Shown piece after piece: positions 3,238 through 58,605 of a DNA stretch of 64,000 bases. A program made the translations under genes and the position numbers. The first letter of the stretch is position 1; every line of letters starts with the position of its first letter. The notes beneath the pieces were generated by a model that was not told the origin of the DNA, searched no databases, and worked only from the letters and a program-made list of their open reading frames with translations. The stretch comes from the human T2T-CHM13v2.0 reference genome, Homo sapiens. The DNA lies in the NCBI RefSeq assembly GCF_009914755.1, contig NC_060936.1, one strand, 5' to 3'.

Positions 3238-3409
3238 CATTTCCTGGGGTTGTTTCCCATTGGGGGACGTGTATAATTTTGATTATTGGCTGTCTCTCTC
3301 ATAAGTCAATGAATGAGCTCAGGAGGACAGAGGCTGTGTACGTCTTGATCATCTCTCTGTATATAGTGCCTACCACAGAATTAGCAAAAGAGTAGCTGTT
3401 AAATACATT

Positions 3410-3885
3410 TTAATGGAATGGATGAATGGGTGGATAGATAGATGGTTATGTAAGTGAATGGGTGAGTGGATGGATGGCTAGGCGAATGTTGAGATGAATG
3501 GCTGGGTGAGTGGATGTCGGAGTCAGTGGGTAAGTGGGTGGATGAGTGGATGTTGGGGTGGATGGGTGAGCTCATCTTGGGATAATGGGTGGGTGGATGG
3601 GTGAATGGATCTTGCGGTGAATGAGTGGGTGAATGGGTGGGTGGATGTGTGGGTGGATATTAAAGTGAATGGATGGTGGATGTGTGAGTGGATATTGGGG
3701 TGAATAGATGGTTGGATAGGTGGGTGGATCTTGGGGTGAATGAGTGGGTGAATGGGTGGGTGGATGGGTGGGTGAATCTTGGGGTGAATGGGTGGATGGG
3801 TAGATCTTGGAGTGAATGGGTGGGTGGATAGGTGGGTGGATGTTAGGGTGAATGGGTTGGTGAAAAGGTGAATGGATGAATGTGT
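3410..3885. repeat. (GGAT/GGGT/GAAT)n degenerate tetranucleotide array
   Basis: Visible directly in the sequence. Confidence 0.9.
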
Positions 3886-4280
3886 CACAGGAGCATCTGT
3901 CCTTGGGCCACCTGATGCAGTGCCAAAGAGTATAGACCTGACCATGAGGAGGCCTGGCTTTATGTCCCTTATCTGCTAGGGTTTACTATATTATCTTGGG
4001 TGAGTAACTACCTCTTTCACATCCTCAGTTGCTAGAAAAGCAAAATAAGTGAAAAGAATTTTTTTCAAAATGCAAATTTCTTGGAGCTCGAAGGTTTGAG
4101 AATGGCAGGTTGGGGACTTCAGGGCTTCTCCTGCTGCCCACAACATAGCTCTGTGACTTTGCACTGGCCGCCTCACCTCTCTGAGCCTCAGCTGCTGTTC
4201 TGTGAAGTAAGTGAGGAAGGCAAAAGGGAGGTGATGGCAGGAACCCCCAGAACTGAGCCACACACTCTTGCTTCAGTCTC

Positions 4281-34460: not shown

Positions 34461-36228
34461 AGTCTGGAGTTCTCAAGCCCTGGTCTTTTATAATGAGCAA
34501 ATGGGCTTTAAGCACTCCCTTTGCACTGACTGTGCTGTGTTTTGATCCATCAAGAATATCCTTCAGAGCCACTTAGACCTTCAGTCCCCATAGAACCTGG
34601 GCCATGTCTTTAGTACAAAGTCTGTCTCATGGGAAGTCAGAGAACCTTGGTTCTTATTCTAGCTGTACTGGCTGTTCCAACTCCCTGTCCTCAGTTTCCA
34701 CGTTTATCAAAGGGAAATGACAATTGTTTGCAGGGTCACTGTGGGGATCAGCTATCAGGAGAGAATTCTGTGGATATATGACAGTATCCACAGTGTGAGG
34801 GAGATTTCTGCCTGAGGCCTCCTCGTCACCCCAGAGGGCAGATCTGTTCTCTGTGGGTTCCCAGAGAAGATGCCAGTCAGGCTGGAGGAGGGAGTCTCTG
34901 CAGAAAACAGAGCAGCCACCTGCCAATGGCAGGTTTCCAGTGTGGTCCCTGATCCCATAGCAGCCGGAGCCCAAGCCCACAAGGAGCCATGTTCTGGAGG
35001 TGCCTTTGGTGGCCCCAAGCAGCCCTGAGAACTGCCAAGTTGAAGCTGCTTTTTATTCTGTTTTAAAATAAAATAGTGATCACATTCCCAAGGTGTGGAG
35101 ACACCCCTCCCCTCCACGAATTAGTCTCAGCTTTCCCAGCCACTCAGGAAAGGATCCAAAGGAATTTTCCACCCATGCCTTATGCAGAGCAAATCCTGGT
35201 GGACAACAGGGTGCCTGCCTCACTTCCAGGCAAGAGTCCTCATCTCCCTCTTTGTAGCACTCACATCTTCCCAACTTGCCTCCCCTAGGGCCCCAAGGTG
35301 CTGACAAGGAGCCTTTGTCTCCCTCTTCCTGGCCTCCATGCCCTTTGCCAAGAACCCTGGCCATGACGTCTCTGCTGATGCAGGTTTCCAAGGCTCATTT
35401 TGTAACCATGAGCAGAGATCTTTGAAACCGCTGCCTCGCTGAGCCATGAGAACCATCCCTGTCAACCCTCAGGGTCCTTTCCATCCCTTACTTTGCCCCA
35501 GCCTCCCAACAACATTGAGGACCACCCCTACCTCACAGGTGAGTAAACTGAAAGTCAGAGAGGTCAAGCAACTTGCCCAAGATCACACAGCTAGAAAATG
35601 GAGGAGCTAGGACTTCAACCCAAAAGCCATGTTCAATGTGTGATGGTTAAGGGTACAGGTTCTGAAGCCAGACCACCTGAGTTCAGAGCCAGCTCTGTCA
35701 CTTACTACCTGTAAGACCTCTTTGTTGCTTAAATTCTTTCCTCAGTTTCCCAATCTGTAAAATGGAGCAATACATGCCTCACAAAGTACATACCTCATAA
35801 ATAATATATACCTTATAAAGTTAGTATTAGGATATAAGAGAAGGAATATAAACAGCTAGAATAATAATACCTGGCCCATGGTATGTTCTCAGTATATTAT
35901 CCATTGTTATTATTGTTGTTGTTGTTGTTGAGTATAATTATGAATCTTACCATTATATGACTTGGCCTCACACATAAATGTGGCATGATTGTAAGGGAGT
36001 ATGGTTTAAAAACAAAACAAAACAAAAACCTCCTCTCAGAATTTCTTTCACACTGAGGTATAAATATCTGATGACATATTACACATTTCTCATTCTTACA
36101 TTCAATAAACCTTACTGAGCACATATTACCTGCCAGGTGTCAGGCTGGGAGATAGAATACAAAGATATAGTTCCCACTCCCAAGAAACCCAAAGCCAGGT
36201 AAGAGCAACAGACGATGAGTAAATCATG

Positions 36229-36830
36229 ACAGAGTAAGCCCAGGGCTGGGGGACCTGTCGGCATAGTATCCATTCCAGCTGCCAAGTCAGGGAAGGCTGC
36301 CTGGACACAGTGAAATTTGAAGGACAAGCAGGAGTTGGCCAGTGGGCACCCCAGGCTGAAGTAACTGCAGAGGCACAAAAGCATTGCACTTTCACATGAT
36401 ACAGCTGGAGAAGAAGGTTGTGAACTGAGTTGGGATTTAAAGCTGTGATGGTGGAAACTCAGGCACTGTGTGGAGTAGAGGTAGAGTTTCAGCCAGAACA
36501 TATGGACCCCAGTGTCTCTAAAATCCCAAAGGGGTGGCATGACTAGGGGACGAAGCCCTGAGCTTCCCTCCCCAAGCCCTGGGAGGTATGCGCCAGGTAA
36601 GGGGTGCTTTCTCCTGAGTGCCAGCAGAAATCCCAACCCACTCCAGGGATCCGGGACTCAGAATTAACATCCCAGCCCTCAGACTGTGAATACCTCTCCC
36701 CCACATTTAGAAAGAGCCAAAAGTGCCAGTCCACCTCCTAAGCCCTTCATATAGCATATACCTGATTACCCAAAAGCAAAGATTTCTCCTTCCTTCCCTC
36801 CTTCTTCCATCTTCCCCTCAGCCTCTTCCT
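36229..36830 (+). repeat. Inverted duplication, arm A (parent copy)
   Basis: Reverse complement aligns to 38233-38839; continues seamlessly into the flanking L2-like sequence. Confidence 0.95.
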
Positions 36831-37409
36831 CCTCCATGTCTCCTTCCGTGGGCAGAATCACAGACACCTGTTCCACTTTGGCCTTCCTCTCCCCAGCTCC
36901 CACCCTCCAGGAAACTGAGCCAGCAGCTTAGGACCAACCAGGTCCTCAGGTCACACCCACATCCACACTGGCTCCACCCACCCTCCTGCTCATTCATTCG
37001 TTCTACAAGAGGAATAGAAACTGGACCCCAGAAACTCCAGCACAGCCATATTCAAAGAAACACAGTCCAGCAGCCAAAAGTGCTTGTAAACCTGTGAAAT
37101 TTTTACTGCCACTTCTCAAAGAACAACAGGATGGTATTGTGGTGGATGTTTTTGGTGCCCAGTCTGGGTCCTCTTCACTAGCAGGGTCCCCCATCTGCCA
37201 GCTGCAGGGAATATTAGATGCTAACAGCTCACAGCTGCCCTCTCCTCCTAAGAATTGCCCTCAGCAGAGCAGGAGCAGCCTCTCCCTGGCTGCCGCAGAG
37301 CACAATGCTCACTCCAGGGGTCCCCGTGGGATCAGACTGAAGCTAGTCTCACCTGAGGCCATATCCTCAATAACCCCTTCCCTGATTCCCATTCTCCTGA
37401 GAGCACAGC

Positions 37410-37790
37410 TTGGACTGGAGGAGGCAAGTGAGGCACTTGCCTTGAGTGCAAACTTAGGGAGGAGGGTTGCCAAAAACCTCACTCATACAAAAAATAATAA
37501 TGTAATGCAACATTTTTTCAAAATCAAATTTACAGCTATGCAGGAGGCTAAGGCGGGCAGATCAATTGAGCCCAGAAGGTCAAGGCTGCAGTGAGCTACG
37601 ATCATACCACTGTACTCCAGCCTGGGTGACAGAGTGAGACCCTGTCTCCAAAAAAATAATAATAAATAAATAATAAAAATTAACGCAAAATATTGCATGA
37701 TGAGCAAAACATCAAAATAAAGATGGGATCCCATCCTGCACTTTCACGCGTCTGCGTCACTCACCACCCCCTAACTCTGACTCTGCTGGA
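37410..37790 (+). mobile_element. MER53 (hAT) interrupted by an Alu right-arm fragment (~37535-37677)
   Basis: ggcaagtgaggcacttgccttgagtgcaaa...aaaatcaaattt [Alu] aaaattaacgcaaaa...atgatgagcaaaacatcaaaa. Confidence 0.7.
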
Positions 37791-38050
37791 GAGCACACCC
37801 TAACACAGAACGTGCACCCAAATCCCTGTCTCAGGCTCTGCTTCAGGGAAACCCAATCTGAGACAGGGATCCAGATCAGAACCCACTGCAGGGGTTCTTA
37901 GAATGTACTTTGACTCATTCCTCTCCTCTGTATTCCCAGATCTAAGACACCCTGATGCCCTTCCCTAGCTCCTCCCCACACAGCCCCCTTCCAGCCAAGG
38001 CTCTCTCTCTGCTCACTGCCCTGACTGAACTAGGAATTGAGCACATATGG

Positions 38051-39093
38051 TGATACAGTTTGAATATCTGTCCCCTCCAAATCTCATGTTGAAATCTGAT
38101 CTCCAGTGTTGGAGGTAGGGCCTAAGGGCAGTGTCTGGGTCATAGGGGTGGATCCCTCCTGACTGTCTTGGTGCTGTCCTCCAAGTAATGGGTGAGTTGT
38201 CTATTAGTTCCCACAAGAATTGATTGTTTAAAAGGAAGAGGTTGAGGGGAAGGTAGAAGAAGGGAGGGGAGAAAGGATAAATCTTTGCTTTTGGGTAATC
38301 AGGTATATGTTACATGAGGGGCTTGGGAGGTGGGCTGGCACTTTTGGCTCTTTCTAAATGTGGAGGGAGAAGTGGTAACAGTCTGAGGGCTAGGATGTTA
38401 ATTCTGAGTCCCGGATCCCTGGAACGGGTTGGAACTCCTGCTGGAGCTCAGGAGAAAGCACCCCTTACCTGGTGCATACCTCCCAGGGCTTGGGGAGGGA
38501 AGCTCAGGGCTTCGTCCCCTAGTCATGCCACCCCTTTGGGATTTTAGGGAGACACTGGGGTCCATATGTTCCGGCTGAAACTCTACCTCTGCTCCACACA
38601 GTGCCTGAGTTTCCACCATCACAGCTTTAAATCCCAACTCAGTTCACAACTTTCTTCTCCAGCTGTATCGTGTGAAAGTGCAATGCTTTTGTGCCTCTGC
38701 AGTTACTTCAGCCTGGGGTGCCCACTGGCCAACTCCTGCTTGTCCTTCAAATTTCACTGTGTCCAGGCAGCCTTCCCTGACTTGGCAGCTGGAGTTGATA
38801 CTATGCCAACAGGTTCCCCTAGCCCTGGGCTTACTCTGTTAGTTCCCACAAGAACTGATTGTTTAAAAGAGCCTGGCACCTTCCTTCCCTCTCTCCCTCC
38901 TCTCCTCATGTGATGCTGGCTCCCCTTCCCCTTCTACCATGAATGGATGCTCCCTGAAGCCATCACCAGAAGCAGATGCTGATTCCATGCTGTTTGTGCA
39001 GCCTGCAGAACCATGAGCAAAATAAACCTCTTTTCTTAGTAAATTACTCAACCTTGGGTATTCTTTTATAGCAACACAAAATGGACTAAGACA
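38051..39093 (+). mobile_element. MSTB-like MaLR solo LTR, split by the inverted duplication
   Basis: Starts tgatacagtttgaatat...ccaaatctcatgttgaaa; ends ggactaagaca; TSD (t/c)atgg. Confidence 0.9.
38233..38839 (-). repeat. Inverted duplication, arm B (daughter copy inserted in an MST LTR)
   Basis: Aligns to arm A in reverse; flanked by a 31-bp direct repeat (38204-38234 / 38839-38869). Confidence 0.95.
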
Positions 39094-39554
39094 CATGGTA
39101 ATCATTTCATCCAATTGCCACAGCTGGGCACCTACTATGTGCCAGGTGCATTCTCCCCCTGCAATCCAGCCTTGGATCTGGCAGCAGATACCTTTCCCTC
39201 CATACCTCATTCTCTCAGATTCCCCCTTCAGCCAGACAGTGCCCACCTGAATCCCCCACTGAGCTCAAAGAAGCCCAAGAGACCAGCTTAGTTCAGTCAA
39301 CTTCACGCCTTGGGATTTCATGAACTGGTTACATTTCCCACAAATTTTTGAGACTGTCATAGAGTTGCCACCTTTCTACATTTGCCAAGTAAGGACACTG
39401 CAAAACTAAAACCATCCTTTACCATCACCACCACTTCAGAAAAGAAACAACACATTAATACCCACGAAAATAGGTGAGACATAGACTCATCTTTTTCAGT
39501 TGAAAATGTTTCACTTTATGAAATGCTTACCTTGCTATCTGTGATTTTCCCTTT

Positions 39555-39587
39555 TTTATTTTATTTATTTATTTATTTATTTATTTT
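39555..39587. repeat. (TTTA)n microsatellite
   Basis: Visible directly. Confidence 0.85.
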
Positions 39588-42500
39588 TGTGGCTTATCTG
39601 CAGACTGGTAAAAATGTGGACACAGGCTCCGGTGGGCTGGGGTTGTCAACCCTTCTGTTTGACATTGGGGGAAACTAAGACCCAAAGGACAGCTTGCCTT
39701 CTCCATTCAAACCCTAGCCCTCAAATGTTTCCCTGAGGGAACCTGAGGAATGAACAAGGTGCAGTGGAGACAGGAAGGCTGGGTTTTAGTCCTGACTCTG
39801 CTCCAAATGTTCCATGAACCTGCACAAGTTTCTGCCCCTCTCTGAACCACAAGGCTGCAAATCTTCAGATGACACTGAGCTGGAAGTTGCCATCTGGTCC
39901 AATGTGTAGGACTTGGGGTGCAGTCCCTGCCTGAGCTCACAAACAAGCTTGGCTGGAGAAACAGGACTGGATGCCAGTCCTCTTTCTCTGATATCCAATC
40001 TAGCGCCTCAGTTTCCTCTTCTGGAAATGAGTTCTTTGATCATTGCCAACTCCAGACTGCCACACAGACAGTGGCACAGGGGCCAAGGGAAGAGAACTGG
40101 CAACAGCTAAGCCACCTGGAGGAATAGGCTGGCCCCACAGCCAAGGACCTCTGATAAGAGGCACAGAGGACTACTTCCAGCTCCAGAGAGACCAGGGGTC
40201 TACAGTCCAGCCCTGGCAGGTCCCCTCCCTGTCAGAGACCCAGCCCAGGCCAGAGGTCTAGGGCTCCAGCAGGGAGACCCCAGAGTTTACATCTCTGGGC
40301 AAAACCAGGCATTTACCTGTCCCCAGTGGAAAGGTACTTGGGGTCCCTGGTGACGACTGGGTTCTTGCCGGTCTCTTTTTTCTGGGAGCTGCATGTGATC
40401 ACACTTGTTGTAGAACAAGCACATCTCAGCTGTCCAGGAAATGTGGCCTGGCTGCCCAGACACAGATGTAGGGGGGCAGATAGGAACAGGGCTCACCAAA
40501 GGGGCATCTTTTCAAGTGTTGTAGTGAAGGCTGCCTGGATTCAAGCCCTGGCTCTGCCGCTTACCAGCTGTGTGACCTTGGGCAAGTCGCTTAACCTCCC
40601 CGTGCCCCTATTCCCTCCAATATACAATGGAGAGGTGAGGGGAAGAGGATCCTATCATGTGGGAGCACTCCCCTCAGACCTGAAAATCCATGAGTTCTCT
40701 ACCCCAAGTTTCTCCAAGCAAGCCACGCAGACGGGAAGCCAGAGCACAGACGAGGCGCCTCTCCCTGGAGCCGACCCAAAGACTTCCAAGGGGCTCCACT
40801 TTCATCTTTAAATGCATGGGCCTATTATGGCACTGAATGCAAAGTTCCCAAGCTATTTTTTTAAAGCATGTGCCCTCAAAATAATTGTATGCAGTTTAAA
40901 AATAAAACACATGGTCTTGAAATAATTTTAGTGAGGGTTTGGTTTTCCCTAAGGGAAAGAGATCCTATTCCCTGAGGGCTGAGGGTGCACCCTTCTGCTG
41001 TTGGGCTCACTTGTTCATTTCCTTGCAAGTGTTTACTGAGCACCCACAATGTGGTGGGTGGCCTGAGCATGCTTCCTCCCACAGCCTCCAGTCTGACCAC
41101 AGCCAGGTCCCAGAGGGAAGAAACCAGCAAGAACCCTGTCAATACCCAGGGCCTTGAGAACACTCCCACCGGGAATAAGTGCTTGGTTTTGCCCAAAGTT
41201 GCTGCACTCAACCTCTGGAAGACCACAGCTGGTTCAGAGCACTTGCTACAGAAGAAAGAGGGCAAGAGGAAAAGGAGGAGGGAGAAGGAGACGGAGCAGC
41301 CGAGACAGGGCAGCAGAGCCAGGGCTGTGGAAGGTGCACTGGGAGGACAGGGATCAGGCAGCCTGGAGTTGTCCCCAGCATTTCCAGAGGGCTTCCAGAC
41401 ACCACACCCCTCGGGGAGCCAGAAGACACCCAGACAAGCCTCATGAGTCGTTCTGGAAACTTGTCCTGGGGGCCTGCCTTGGACTGTGGCTTCTTTCATT
41501 TCACCCCTGTCCACTCTCAATCACCTGAGAGCATGAAGATCAGAGCCACAGAGCTTCTTACTAAATCCACATCGTGGCTGGGGATATGGGTTGCTGGTAA
41601 CAAAATAGCTCAGGCTGCACACTCACTAAGCGCAGCCCTGTGTAGACTCCTGGCAGGTGCAAGGCAACTTGCACCCCTACTGTTATCAGCCCAATTCCAA
41701 CTTCCCCAATGGGTAAATAGCTGGCTGTGGCAAATACCAAAAATATTTAAATAGCTGGCTGTTGCAAATACCAAAAGCAAGAAAAGAAATAAAACATACC
41801 CTCCCACAGATCCATCTCCCCCTGCCCCACCCAGATAACCCTATGAGGCAACATCATCCTTACACCCATTTTACAGATGAGGAAACTGAGGCAATCAAGC
41901 AAGGAAGTCAAGGAATTTGAAGCCAAGCCACCGAATTCCAGAAGCTTTGACCGTCTTGCCATCCTGCCTCTCTAAACACACCTGGATAAAATGCACTTCT
42001 ACCCACACCAGCGCAGCCACCAACACCACATCCTCTCCCAGTTCTCACTTCCACTCCCTGAACAAGGAGGGGAGGAAAATGAGTTGAAAGACAGTTTTAC
42101 CAGTTCCGCAGAAAGTGCAAGGACCCCAGGCTCCTCATCCAGGGCACAGGACATGTTGGGGTAACCACTCCTACCCCCAGGCTCTGTCAGAAATGCTGGC
42201 GGGTGGGTGGGCAGTGTAGACATGAGTGCACCAAGATTGGGACACTCACCTCCGTGACCTCCAAGGCCTGCCCTATTTCTCTGAACTCTGCTAACATGCA
42301 GCTTTGTCATTTTTTTTAAGATAACCCAATTTTGGCCATTCTGTCTACAAGAAAAGGGAGGAAGAGAGAGGCCCCAACGGAGGTGCAAATAAGTTGGAAC
42401 TACAAACTTCTCCTATGAAATTGACTCAGTAGTTTTCTTTCCTCAGGTCCTTGCAGCAGAGGAGGCTGTGGCTTGCTTGTCTCTAAGAAGATCCCCAACC

Positions 42501-58014: not shown

Positions 58015-58605
58015 TGGAAGAGGAAGAGGAGGAAGAGGGAAAGGGAGGAGGGAGAGGAAAAGAGGAGGAGGGAAAAAGGAGAGGAGGAGGAGGGAAAAAG
58101 GGAGGAGGAGGAGGAAAAAGGAGGGGCCAAGTAGAGGAGAGGGGAGGGGGAGGAGGAGGAGGGAAAGGGAGGAGGGATATGAAAAGAGGAGGAGGGAAGA
58201 GGAGCGGAGGAGGAGGGAAGAGAAAGAAAGGGGAGGAGGAGAGGGCGGGGGAGGAGGAGACGAGGAGGAGGGAGTAAGGAGGAGGAGGGAAAGGGAGGAA
58301 GGAGATGAAAAGAGGAGGAGGGAGGAAGAGAGGAGGAGGAGGGAAGAGGACGGGTCAAGGGGAGGAGAGGGGAGAGGGAGGAGGAGAAGAGGGGGAGGGG
58401 GTAAGGAGGAGGAGGGAAAGGGAGGAGGGAGATGAAAAGAGGAAAAAGAGGGAAGAGGAGAGGAGGAGGGAAGAGGAAGAAAGGGGAGGAGGGGGTCAGA
58501 AGGAGGAAGGGGGAAAGAGAAGAAGGGGAGGAAAGGGAGATAAAGGAGAGGGGAGGAGAAGAAGGAGTGGGGGAGAGGAGGGAGAGTGGGAGAGAAGAGA
58601 AGGAG
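58015..58605. repeat. ~590-bp (GGA/GAG)-rich polypurine tract with a ~126-bp internal period
   Basis: Nearly pure purine on plus; atgaaaagagg recurs at 58179, 58305 and 58432. Confidence 0.9.

What the first reader, a model, noticed from the sequence alone, without database searches (positions are those of the whole stretch)
36229..38869. ~600-bp inverted duplication created by template switching into an MST LTR
Seen: 38233-38839 is the reverse complement of 36229-36830, across a ~1.4-kb spacer. The daughter copy splits an MSTB-like LTR and is flanked by a 31-bp direct duplication, ttagttcccacaagaa(t/c)tgattgtttaaaag (38204-38234 / 38839-38869). Junctions show microhomology (AG on the left, TCT.T on the right) and there is no poly-A tail. 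The parent copy runs on into older L2-like sequence, which fixes the direction of copying. Inference: this is a fossil FoSTeS/MMBIR or Pol-theta templated insertion, not retrotransposition, and it post-dates the MST insertion.
Basis: partly seen in the sequence, partly recalled or inferred. Interest (0 to 1): 0.8.

Follow-up and report, generated by a model that had tools for sequence, protein, structure and literature searches.

The report
Old inverted copy pasted into LTR
About 600 bases of a CMKLR1 intron were copied long ago, in reverse orientation, into a retroviral LTR remnant 1.4 kb away, apparently by a DNA-copying slip and not by a jumping gene; it is a clean but ordinary example of a known kind of mutation.

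Summary
Window 38233-38839 is the reverse complement of 36229-36830: 570 of 607 aligned columns are identical, with 32 mismatches and 5 gap columns. A whole-genome search found this unit at only these two places, so it is not a multi-copy transposon.

The second copy splits a multi-copy solo LTR (38051-39093) and is flanked by a 31-base duplication of LTR sequence. In 25 of 29 paralogous LTR copies the two halves meet on a single 31-mer, and no copy shows a duplication.

The junctions show 2 bases of microhomology (AG) and 1 strict base (T; 4 of 5 as TCT.T). There is no poly-A tail, no polyadenylation signal and no L1 endonuclease site.

Best reading (about 0.7): a DNA-templated, microhomology-primed template switch (MMBIR/FoSTeS or snap-back synthesis) that returned 31 bases behind its point of departure. 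An RNA-templated patch is not excluded.

Arm divergence is mosaic: 2.3% over 36229-36621 and 10.7% over 36622-36830. This suggests later gene conversion or clustered mutation, and it makes the age uncertain.

No primate outgroup could be consulted. This is a new member of a known kind, of modest interest.

The parts
36229..36830 (+). Arm A, the parent (template) copy, 602 nt. Unique sequence in the CMKLR1 intron; it includes bases 30-98 of an alternative exon and its 5' splice site.
   Evidence: alignment; only two places in the genome. No flanking duplication around it.
38233..38839 (-). Arm B, the daughter copy, 607 nt, reverse complement of arm A. The new DNA is 38235-38838; the end bases overlap the microhomologies.
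   Evidence: 570 of 607 columns identical. It lies inside an LTR between two copies of a 31-mer.
38204..38234 (+). Left copy of the 31-nt duplicated target. T at 38220 is a later change.
   Evidence: D1; paralogous LTR copies have C at this position in 26 of 27.
38839..38869 (+). Right copy of the 31-nt duplicated target.
38051..38234 (+). Left half of the host solo LTR. It starts with TG and is preceded by TATGG.
   Evidence: 3619 first-look candidates genome-wide; 39 other scored places at 78-85% identity. for the sequence.
38870..39093 (+). Right half of the host solo LTR. It ends with CA and is followed by CATGG.
   Evidence: it aligns in the paralogous copies directly after the single 31-mer. 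for the sequence.
36831..38232 (.). 1402-nt spacer between the arms. It contains an Alu-type piece at 37533-37682 with an A-rich tail.
   Evidence: (family D3, 6 copies in the window).
36783..36849 (+). 67-nt tract, 91% pyrimidine on the + strand, surrounding the point (36830) where copying of the parent began.
   Evidence: about 1% of window positions lie in a tract this pure and this long.
36762..36859 (-). Annotated alternative CMKLR1 exon overlapping arm A. Probably a first exon: GT, not AG, precedes it, and a GT donor follows it.
   Evidence: The hub's gene table, plus the sequence. That it is a first exon is my inference.

Best explanation
This is a fossil DNA-templated insertion made by template switching.

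Proposed sequence of events (inferred):
1. A 3' DNA end was being extended rightwards along the + strand through a solo MaLR-type LTR. It stopped after 38234. The end could have been a stalled leading strand or the resected left end of a break.
2. It paired through 2 bases (AG) with the + strand about 1.4 kb behind it, at 36829-36830, inside a pyrimidine-rich tract. That strand is either the lagging-strand template or the end's own resected tail (snap-back).
3. It copied that strand down to 36229, making a 604-nt inverted copy.
4. It then switched back to the original, sister or homologous template at 38200-38204, 31 bases behind the point of departure. Pairing would be TCTGT on the complement of TCTAT, that is 4 pairs plus a G.T wobble.
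5. Synthesis resumed, so the 31 bases were copied twice.

Shown: the structure, the single-copy state of the 31-mer in the LTR family, the two-copy state of the unit, the junction sequences, and the absence of poly-A.

Inferred: the order of steps, the strand and the enzymes.

The event post-dates the LTR. From arm divergence it is tens of millions of years old (catarrhine time frame). Part of the arms may have been homogenised later by gene conversion.

Today the structure has no demonstrated function. It does place a roughly 600-bp near-perfect inverted repeat in the CMKLR1 intron.
For: - Structure: and searches show a 602/607-nt inverted copy at 94% identity. One search shows only 2 places in the 3.1-Gb genome, so the only available source is 1.4 kb away in cis.
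- Target: in 25 of 29 paralogous LTR copies both halves map onto one single 31-mer. One further copy has 19 of 19 mapped positions. In 3 copies the alignments do not cover the site. None is duplicated.
- Left copy of the target: family copies have A at the position of 38203 in 21 of 28, so the target read TCTAT. The G in the daughter's TCTGT is the parent's base.
- Age of the duplication: the 31-mer copies were identical at the time of the event, because family copies have C in 26 of 27 at the one differing site.
- Against retrotransposition: there is no poly-A, no AATAAA or ATTAAA near either insert end, and neither edge of the duplication is a TTTT/A site. The edges read TCTA/TTAG and AAAAG/AGCC.
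- Setting: the entry point lies in a 67-nt, 91% pyrimidine tract.
Against: - No outgroup genome could be consulted, so the empty site is inferred from paralogous LTRs and not seen in an orthologue.
- The microhomologies are short (2 nt, and 1 nt strict). They are compatible with end joining or chance.
- The event is much larger and more distant than the MMB-TIs catalogued so far. That tool searches for templates within 100 bp and inserts no longer than a read. Here the insert is 604 nt and the template is 1.4 kb away.
- A flanking duplication of 31 nt is also a feature of target-primed reverse transcription.
- The source is transcribed, and the copy begins 29 nt downstream of what looks like an annotated transcription start. 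An unspliced RNA template therefore remains possible.
- The mismatch spectrum is symmetric: W>S against S>W is 12 to 11 in 36622-36830 and 4 to 5 in 36229-36621. This gives no sign of error-prone synthesis.
- No significant hairpin exists at the breakpoints.
Confidence: 0.7

Rival explanations
1. RNA-templated patch or atypical retrotransposition. An unspliced CMKLR1 transcript, sense strand, possibly started at the alternative first exon, was reverse-transcribed at a staggered break or nick pair in the LTR. The reverse transcriptase could be L1 ORF2p acting without its usual site.
For: - The insert has a 31-nt flanking duplication. A duplication of 5 nt or more is the first feature of class 1 templated sequence insertions (PMC5110952, passages seen).
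- The source lies in a transcribed gene.
- Read on the + strand, the insert has the sense of the CMKLR1 RNA. It starts 29 nt downstream of the annotated start of exon 36762-36859 (hub table).
- Class 2 insertions lack poly-A and show microhomology.
Against: - There is no poly-A tail, no polyadenylation signal and no TTTT/A site at either edge. That is 3 of the 4 class 1 features not met.
- Class 2 events have no target duplication, but this one has 31 nt.
- The copy is unspliced and includes 533 nt of intron.
- The template lies 1.4 kb away in cis and in inverted orientation. That arrangement is what a local DNA strand switch predicts, whereas an RNA template has no reason to land this close.
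Confidence: 0.12
2. End-joining capture of a free double-stranded DNA fragment copied or released from 36229-36830, for example from the sister chromatid, at a break with 31-nt staggered ends that were filled in.
For: The junction homologies are very short (2 nt, and 1 nt strict). This is typical of end joining. Capture of DNA 'patches' at breaks is documented (PMC5110952).
Against: - The parent copy is intact, so the fragment must itself have been made by copying.
- A 31-nt stagger with fill-in on both ends is an extra assumption.
- The nearness and inverted orientation of the source are left to chance.
Confidence: 0.08
3. Two independent insertions of a mobile element, or an assembly artefact.
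For: None found. The only resemblance is that arm B has a flanking duplication.
Against: - One search finds only 2 places in the genome.
- Arm A has no flanking duplication, and the unit has no terminal inverted or long terminal repeats.
- The arms differ at 32 sites and 5 gap columns, which an assembly duplication would not produce.
Confidence: 0.02

Closest known systems
MMBIR/FoSTeS templated insertions (MMB-TI signature; PMC8421209, passages seen; the FoSTeS and MMBIR models themselves are recalled, not read here)
   Same: An inverted copy of a nearby template that stays intact, microhomology at both junctions, and no retrotransposon marks. A return to the original template behind the point of departure explains the flanking duplication.
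   Different: The scale differs. The insert is 604 nt and the template 1.4 kb away, against tens of bases within 100 bp in that survey. This is also an old, apparently fixed germline event and not a somatic or disease allele.
Templated sequence insertion polymorphisms, classes 1 and 2 (PMC5110952, passages seen)
   Same: A stretch templated from elsewhere in the genome is inserted while the donor is kept. It shares the target duplication with class 1. It shares microhomology and the lack of poly-A with class 2.
   Different: It fits neither class. It has the duplication but lacks the poly-A tail, poly-A signal and TTTT/A site of class 1. It has a duplication that class 2 lacks. Its template is local and inverted, not distant.
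Fold-back (snap-back) inverted insertions at breaks (PMC11724301; only the search listing and start of the abstract were seen)
   Same: An inverted duplication made by a 3' end priming on its own strand.
   Different: Those events are described as mostly about 5-34 bp and adjacent to the break. Here the copy is 604 nt and starts 1.4 kb back.
Inverted-repeat and palindrome arms kept alike by gene conversion (recalled, for example sex-chromosome palindromes)
   Same: Two inverted arms in cis, with one part much more alike (2.3%) than the rest (10.7%).
   Different: The arms are only 0.6 kb long. Conversion is inferred from the mosaic alone and was not shown with outgroups.

Membership tests
MMBIR/FoSTeS-type templated insertion | The insert is an inverted copy of a nearby template that remains in place. 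| tested here: met
   (94% inverted copy, parent intact). (the only other copy in the genome, 1.4 kb away). The distance is larger than the 100 bp used in PMC8421209.
MMBIR/FoSTeS-type templated insertion | Microhomology at both junctions. | tested here: met
   AG (2 nt) at the left junction. T (1 nt strict), or 4 of 5 as TCT.T, at the right junction. This is short, so it is weak support.
MMBIR/FoSTeS-type templated insertion | Replicative origin (polymerase switching, not ligation of fragments). | not testable with these tools
   Sequence alone cannot separate it from capture of a copied fragment.
L1 ORF2p-mediated insertion (class 1 TSIP or processed copy) | Target-site duplication of 5 nt or more. 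| tested here: met
   A 31-nt duplication with 30 of 31 bases identical.
L1 ORF2p-mediated insertion (class 1 TSIP or processed copy) | Poly-A tail at one end of the insert. | tested here: not met
   Neither insert end carries an A-run or T-run.
L1 ORF2p-mediated insertion (class 1 TSIP or processed copy) | Polyadenylation signal 10-30 nt before the insert end. | tested here: not met
   No AATAAA or ATTAAA in the last 40 nt in either orientation. This was read by eye.
L1 ORF2p-mediated insertion (class 1 TSIP or processed copy) | Insertion at a TTTT/A-type nick site. | tested here: not met
   The edges of the duplication read TCTA/TTAG and AAAAG/AGCC. A TTTAAAA lies inside the duplication but not at its edge.
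Pol-theta end joining with templated insert | Short templated inserts (a few to some tens of bases; recalled) with microhomology. | tested here: not met
   The insert is 604 nt. Microhomology is present.
Interspersed repeat or transposon (the 600-nt unit) | Many diverged copies in the genome and defined termini. | tested here: not met
   One search gave 2 first-look candidates and 2 matches. No terminal repeats. Very old copies below BLAST's reach cannot be excluded.
MaLR-type solo LTR (host of the insertion) | A multi-copy element of about 400 nt with TG...CA ends and a 5-nt flanking duplication. | tested here: met
   3619 first-look candidates. 38051 TG to 39093 CA, 408 nt without the insert. 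Flanks TATGG and CATGG match at 4 of 5. The names MaLR and MST are recalled; no repeat library was available.

The most novel reading that the evidence does not exclude
The event left a functional legacy. In CMKLR1 pre-mRNAs started at the upstream promoters, the two arms can pair into a roughly 600-bp, 94% matched intronic double-stranded RNA. That duplex swallows 69 of the 98 bases and the 5' splice site of the alternative first exon. It could be an ADAR substrate. It could also mask that splice site or alter use of the alternative promoter in immune cells. The unusually low divergence of 36229-36621 would then reflect maintenance of pairing, by conversion or by selection, and not chance.
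Probability: 0.1. Interest if true: 0.55.

Novelty: new member of a known kind. Interest (0 to 1): 0.3.

Why it matters
It is a clean, base-resolved fossil of a non-retrotransposon templated insertion that became fixed in the human lineage. It is much longer (604 nt) and farther from its template (1.4 kb) than the templated insertions usually catalogued.

The empty site can be reconstructed from a repeat family. This shows that such events can be recognised in a single genome by three marks: a unique inverted local copy, a flanking duplication, and an interrupted repeat. That could seed a genome-wide survey of how much replicative template switching has contributed to primate genomes.

By itself it changes no established view. 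Any effect on CMKLR1 is untested.

Tried and rejected
1. Multi-copy transposon. Rejected: 2 of 2 genome matches are the arms themselves.

2. L1-type retrotransposition. No poly-A, no signal and no nick site. Kept only as a low-odds RNA-patch rival.

3. Hairpins at the breakpoints as a cause of stalling. DNA folds of both 31-mer copies and of the entry region give z-scores of -0.58, 0.29 and 0.98. No support.

4. Short local template switches as the source of the two mismatch clusters (36619-36641 and 36688-36694). Only 8-10-mers recur, which is uninformative. The clusters stay unexplained.

5. Error-prone synthesis as the cause of the high divergence near the entry end. The direction of changes is symmetric: W>S 12 against S>W 11. 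No support.

6. No repeated DNA abuts arm A. This could not be verified without a repeat library.

7. Earlier scan notes.

8. Literature on this locus. 'CMKLR1' with 'inverted repeat' returned 0 papers. 'CMKLR1' with 'A-to-I' and 'dsRNA' returned two papers that hold CMKLR1. In both it is an unrelated mention: a reference-list entry and a differentially expressed gene.

9. Orthologous primate loci.

Full report
**The observation**

The repeat finder on 35000-40000 reports five collinear inverted pieces that together cover 36229-36830 and 38233-38839:
- I6, 25 nt at 96%
- I1, 271 nt at 97%
- I2, 189 nt at 92%
- I3, 104 nt at 91%
- I4, 31 nt at 90%

It also reports a direct repeat, 38200-38234 against 38835-38869, with 33 of 35 bases identical.

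A gapped alignment joins the pieces. It compares 602 nt with 607 nt and gives 570 of 607 columns identical, 32 mismatches (27 transitions, 5 transversions, 5 in CpG context) and 5 gap columns. K2P distance is 0.056. The homology stops sharply at both ends. The spacer is 1402 nt.

In the whole 64-kb window this is the longest and best inverted pair. The other pairs of 90 nt or more are 79-88% matches between members of dispersed repeat families, which from the sequences shown I take to be Alu.

**Is the unit a repeat?**

A search of the window's own 3.1-Gb assembly with arm A gave 2 first-look candidates and 2 matches: arm A itself, and arm B at E = 6.8e-264 and 94% identity. The tool warns that it skips very common words and scores only the best candidates. 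Even so, a family of moderately diverged copies would have shown up, as it did for the LTR (3619 candidates).

The flanks of arm A are also essentially unique. In 35400-36228 the only repeated pieces are query 125-226 (about 35524-35625; 367 first-look candidates) and one weak match at query 278-368. In 36831-37500 only query 334-459 (about 37164-37289) recurs, with 8 candidates.

It is not needed for the argument.

**The host element and the empty site**

The left flank of arm B, 38051-38234, belongs to a large family. There were 3619 first-look candidates and 40 scored matches; the 39 other than itself were 78-85% identical.

I fetched 29 paralogous copies (L004-L032) and aligned both flanks of the insertion to each. 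All 29 contain both halves.
- In 25 of 29, the 31 bases that end the left half and the 31 bases that begin the right half map to the same bases of the copy (21 to 31 positions mapped, all concordant).
- One more copy has 19 of 19 concordant.
- In three copies (L006, L008, L009) the alignments do not reach the site.
- No copy has the 31-mer twice.

The element runs from TG at 38051 to CA at 39093. It is 408 nt without the insert. It is flanked by TATGG and CATGG, as expected of a solo LTR with a 5-nt target duplication. From memory I recognise it as a MaLR LTR of the THE1/MST type. The subfamily could not be tested.

The added DNA is therefore 38235-38869 (635 nt). That is 604 nt copied from the parent plus a second copy of 31 nt of LTR. 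Arm B is thus the daughter and is younger than the LTR.

**The junctions**

Left junction: the target ends ...AAAAG and would continue AGCC, while the daughter continues GAAGAGG. The reverse complement of the parent reads ...GGAGG-AG-GAAGAGG. AG is therefore shared.

Right junction: the daughter reads TCTGT, exactly as the parent does, before the right 31-mer. The same place before the left 31-mer reads TCTAT. Paralogous LTR copies have A there in 21 of 28 (G in 5, C in 2), so the target carried A and the G came from the parent. Strict microhomology is one T. With a G.T wobble, five bases could have paired.

The single difference inside the 31-mer (38220 T against 38855 C) is a later change in the left copy, because the family has C in 26 of 27 copies.

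Neither end of the insert has an A-run or T-run. By eye there is no AATAAA or ATTAAA in the last 40 nt in either orientation. The edges of the duplication (TCTA/TTAG and AAAAG/AGCC) are not TTTT/A sites.

**Mechanism**

The structure is what a strand switch predicts. A 3' end growing rightwards on the + strand leaves its template after 38234. It primes through AG on the + strand at 36830 and copies it down to 36229. It then re-pairs at 38200-38204, 31 bases behind where it left, so that those 31 bases are copied twice.

The strand used as template is the lagging-strand template behind a rightward fork. Equally, it is the same strand as the invading 3' end if that end was a resected break (snap-back). 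A sister or homologous template for the return step gives the duplication without needing a staggered cut. I cannot separate these variants.

The published signature of MMBIR templated insertions is an insert in inverted orientation near its template with microhomologies at the junctions (PMC8421209, passages seen). That signature is met. The scale is much larger than in that survey, which by design looked within 100 bp.

The event fits neither class of templated sequence insertion polymorphism (PMC5110952, passages seen). It has the duplication of class 1 without the poly-A tail, signal or nick site. It has the microhomology of class 2 but also a duplication, which class 2 lacks.

An RNA template cannot be excluded. 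The source is transcribed. On the + strand the insert has the sense of the CMKLR1 RNA. It begins 29 nt downstream of the start of the annotated exon 36762-36859. I take that exon to be an alternative first exon because GT, not AG, precedes it (hub table).

I put a DNA-templated switch at about 0.7, an RNA patch at about 0.12, capture of a DNA fragment at about 0.08, and everything else at a few per cent.

One circumstantial point: the entry site lies inside a 67-nt, 91% pyrimidine tract (36783-36849). About 1% of window positions lie in such a tract. Tracts of this kind are known (recalled) to adopt unusual DNA structures, but no role is shown here. Small hairpins at the breakpoints are no better than in shuffled sequence.

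**Age and the mosaic**

Divergence is not even along the arms. Columns 1-393 (36229-36621) carry 9 mismatches (2.3%). Columns 394-607 (36622-36830) carry 23 (10.7%). The best change point had a likelihood ratio of 18.8, reached by 0 of 2000 permutations.

Part of this comes from two tight clusters, 36619-36641 and 36688-36694, which hold 13 mismatches between them (two of these, 36619 and 36620, fall just inside the first part). After merging mismatches within 5 nt into single events, the contrast is 8 events in 393 columns against 12 in 214 (Fisher p = 0.03). The direction of changes is balanced in both parts, so nothing points to one-sided, error-prone copying.

The simplest account is that the distal 390 nt were homogenised later by gene conversion between the inverted arms, or that the proximal part suffered a few multi-base mutations. 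The longest perfect run is 123 nt.

Four of the five CpG sites in the low-divergence part differ between the arms. This sits a little uneasily with a very recent conversion, but the numbers are small.

For scale I used recalled primate divergences: human-orangutan about 3%, human-macaque about 6.5%, human-marmoset about 11%. The overall 5.6% then points to the catarrhine stem, with bounds from roughly the great-ape ancestor to before the New World monkey split.

The host LTR is 78-85% identical to its paralogues, so it is several times older.

**Consequences**

Transcripts from the upstream CMKLR1 promoters run through both arms. The arms could pair over 580 bases (duplex energy -1193 kcal/mol), with a 1.4-kb loop. 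The duplex would include 69 of the 98 bases of the alternative exon and its donor site. Arm B also carries a copy of that donor site on the + strand.

I found nothing in print on this. 'CMKLR1' with 'inverted repeat' gave 0 papers. The two papers holding CMKLR1 together with editing terms mention it only incidentally. Any function is speculation.

**Verdict**

It is a clean, old, fixed example of a known mutational class. The outgroup test remains to be done.

Noticed in passing
window 36229-36621 versus 36622-36830 (and the matching parts of 38233-38839): Divergence between the arms is mosaic: 9 mismatches in 393 columns against 23 in 214. None of 2000 permutations reached the change-point statistic. 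After collapsing clustered mismatches the contrast is 8 events against 12 (p = 0.03). Possible causes are gene conversion between the inverted arms or multi-base mutations.
   Followed up: partly
window 36619-36641 and 36688-36694 (arm B 38424-38446 and 38371-38377): Two tight clusters hold 13 of the 32 mismatches. The second can also be read as a paired 3-nt deletion and insertion. No nearby template for a short switch was found.
   Followed up: partly
window 36762-36859, minus strand: The annotated alternative CMKLR1 exon is preceded by GT, not AG, and followed by a GT donor, so it looks like an alternative first exon. Arm A starts at its base 30. Arm B therefore carries a promoter-less copy of the exon's 3' part and its donor site on the opposite strand (about 38233-38306).
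   Followed up: partly
window 36783-36849: A 67-nt tract that is 91% pyrimidine on the + strand, around the alternative exon start and the point where copying began. About 1% of window positions lie in such a tract.
   Followed up: partly
window 36229-38839, minus-strand RNA: The arms could form an intronic RNA duplex of about 580 pairs (-1193 kcal/mol) with perfect runs of up to 123 bp. It is the only long inverted pair in the window that does not involve the dispersed repeat families (Alu-type by my reading).
   Followed up: partly
window 37533-37682: An Alu-type piece of about 150 nt with an A-rich tail lies in the spacer (6 family copies in the window). Whether it arrived before or after the duplication is unknown. 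If it arrived after, the template was about 1.25 kb away at the time.
   Followed up: no
window about 35524-35625 and about 37164-37289: Short, old interspersed-repeat pieces on either side of arm A but not abutting it: 367 and 8 first-look candidates genome-wide at 74-90% identity. The first is possibly MIR-like (recalled).
   Followed up: no
window 3408-3907: A G/T-rich minisatellite with a 12-nt period (GGGTGGATGG-like units), just outside the 3' end of CMKLR1 (family D1).
   Followed up: no
window 58015-58521: A tandem array of about five units of roughly 100-127 nt at 60-88% identity (family D4), upstream of CMKLR1.
   Followed up: no
window 39555-39589: A (TTTA)n microsatellite, which pairs weakly with the A-rich tail at 37649-37683 (I5).
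   Followed up: no
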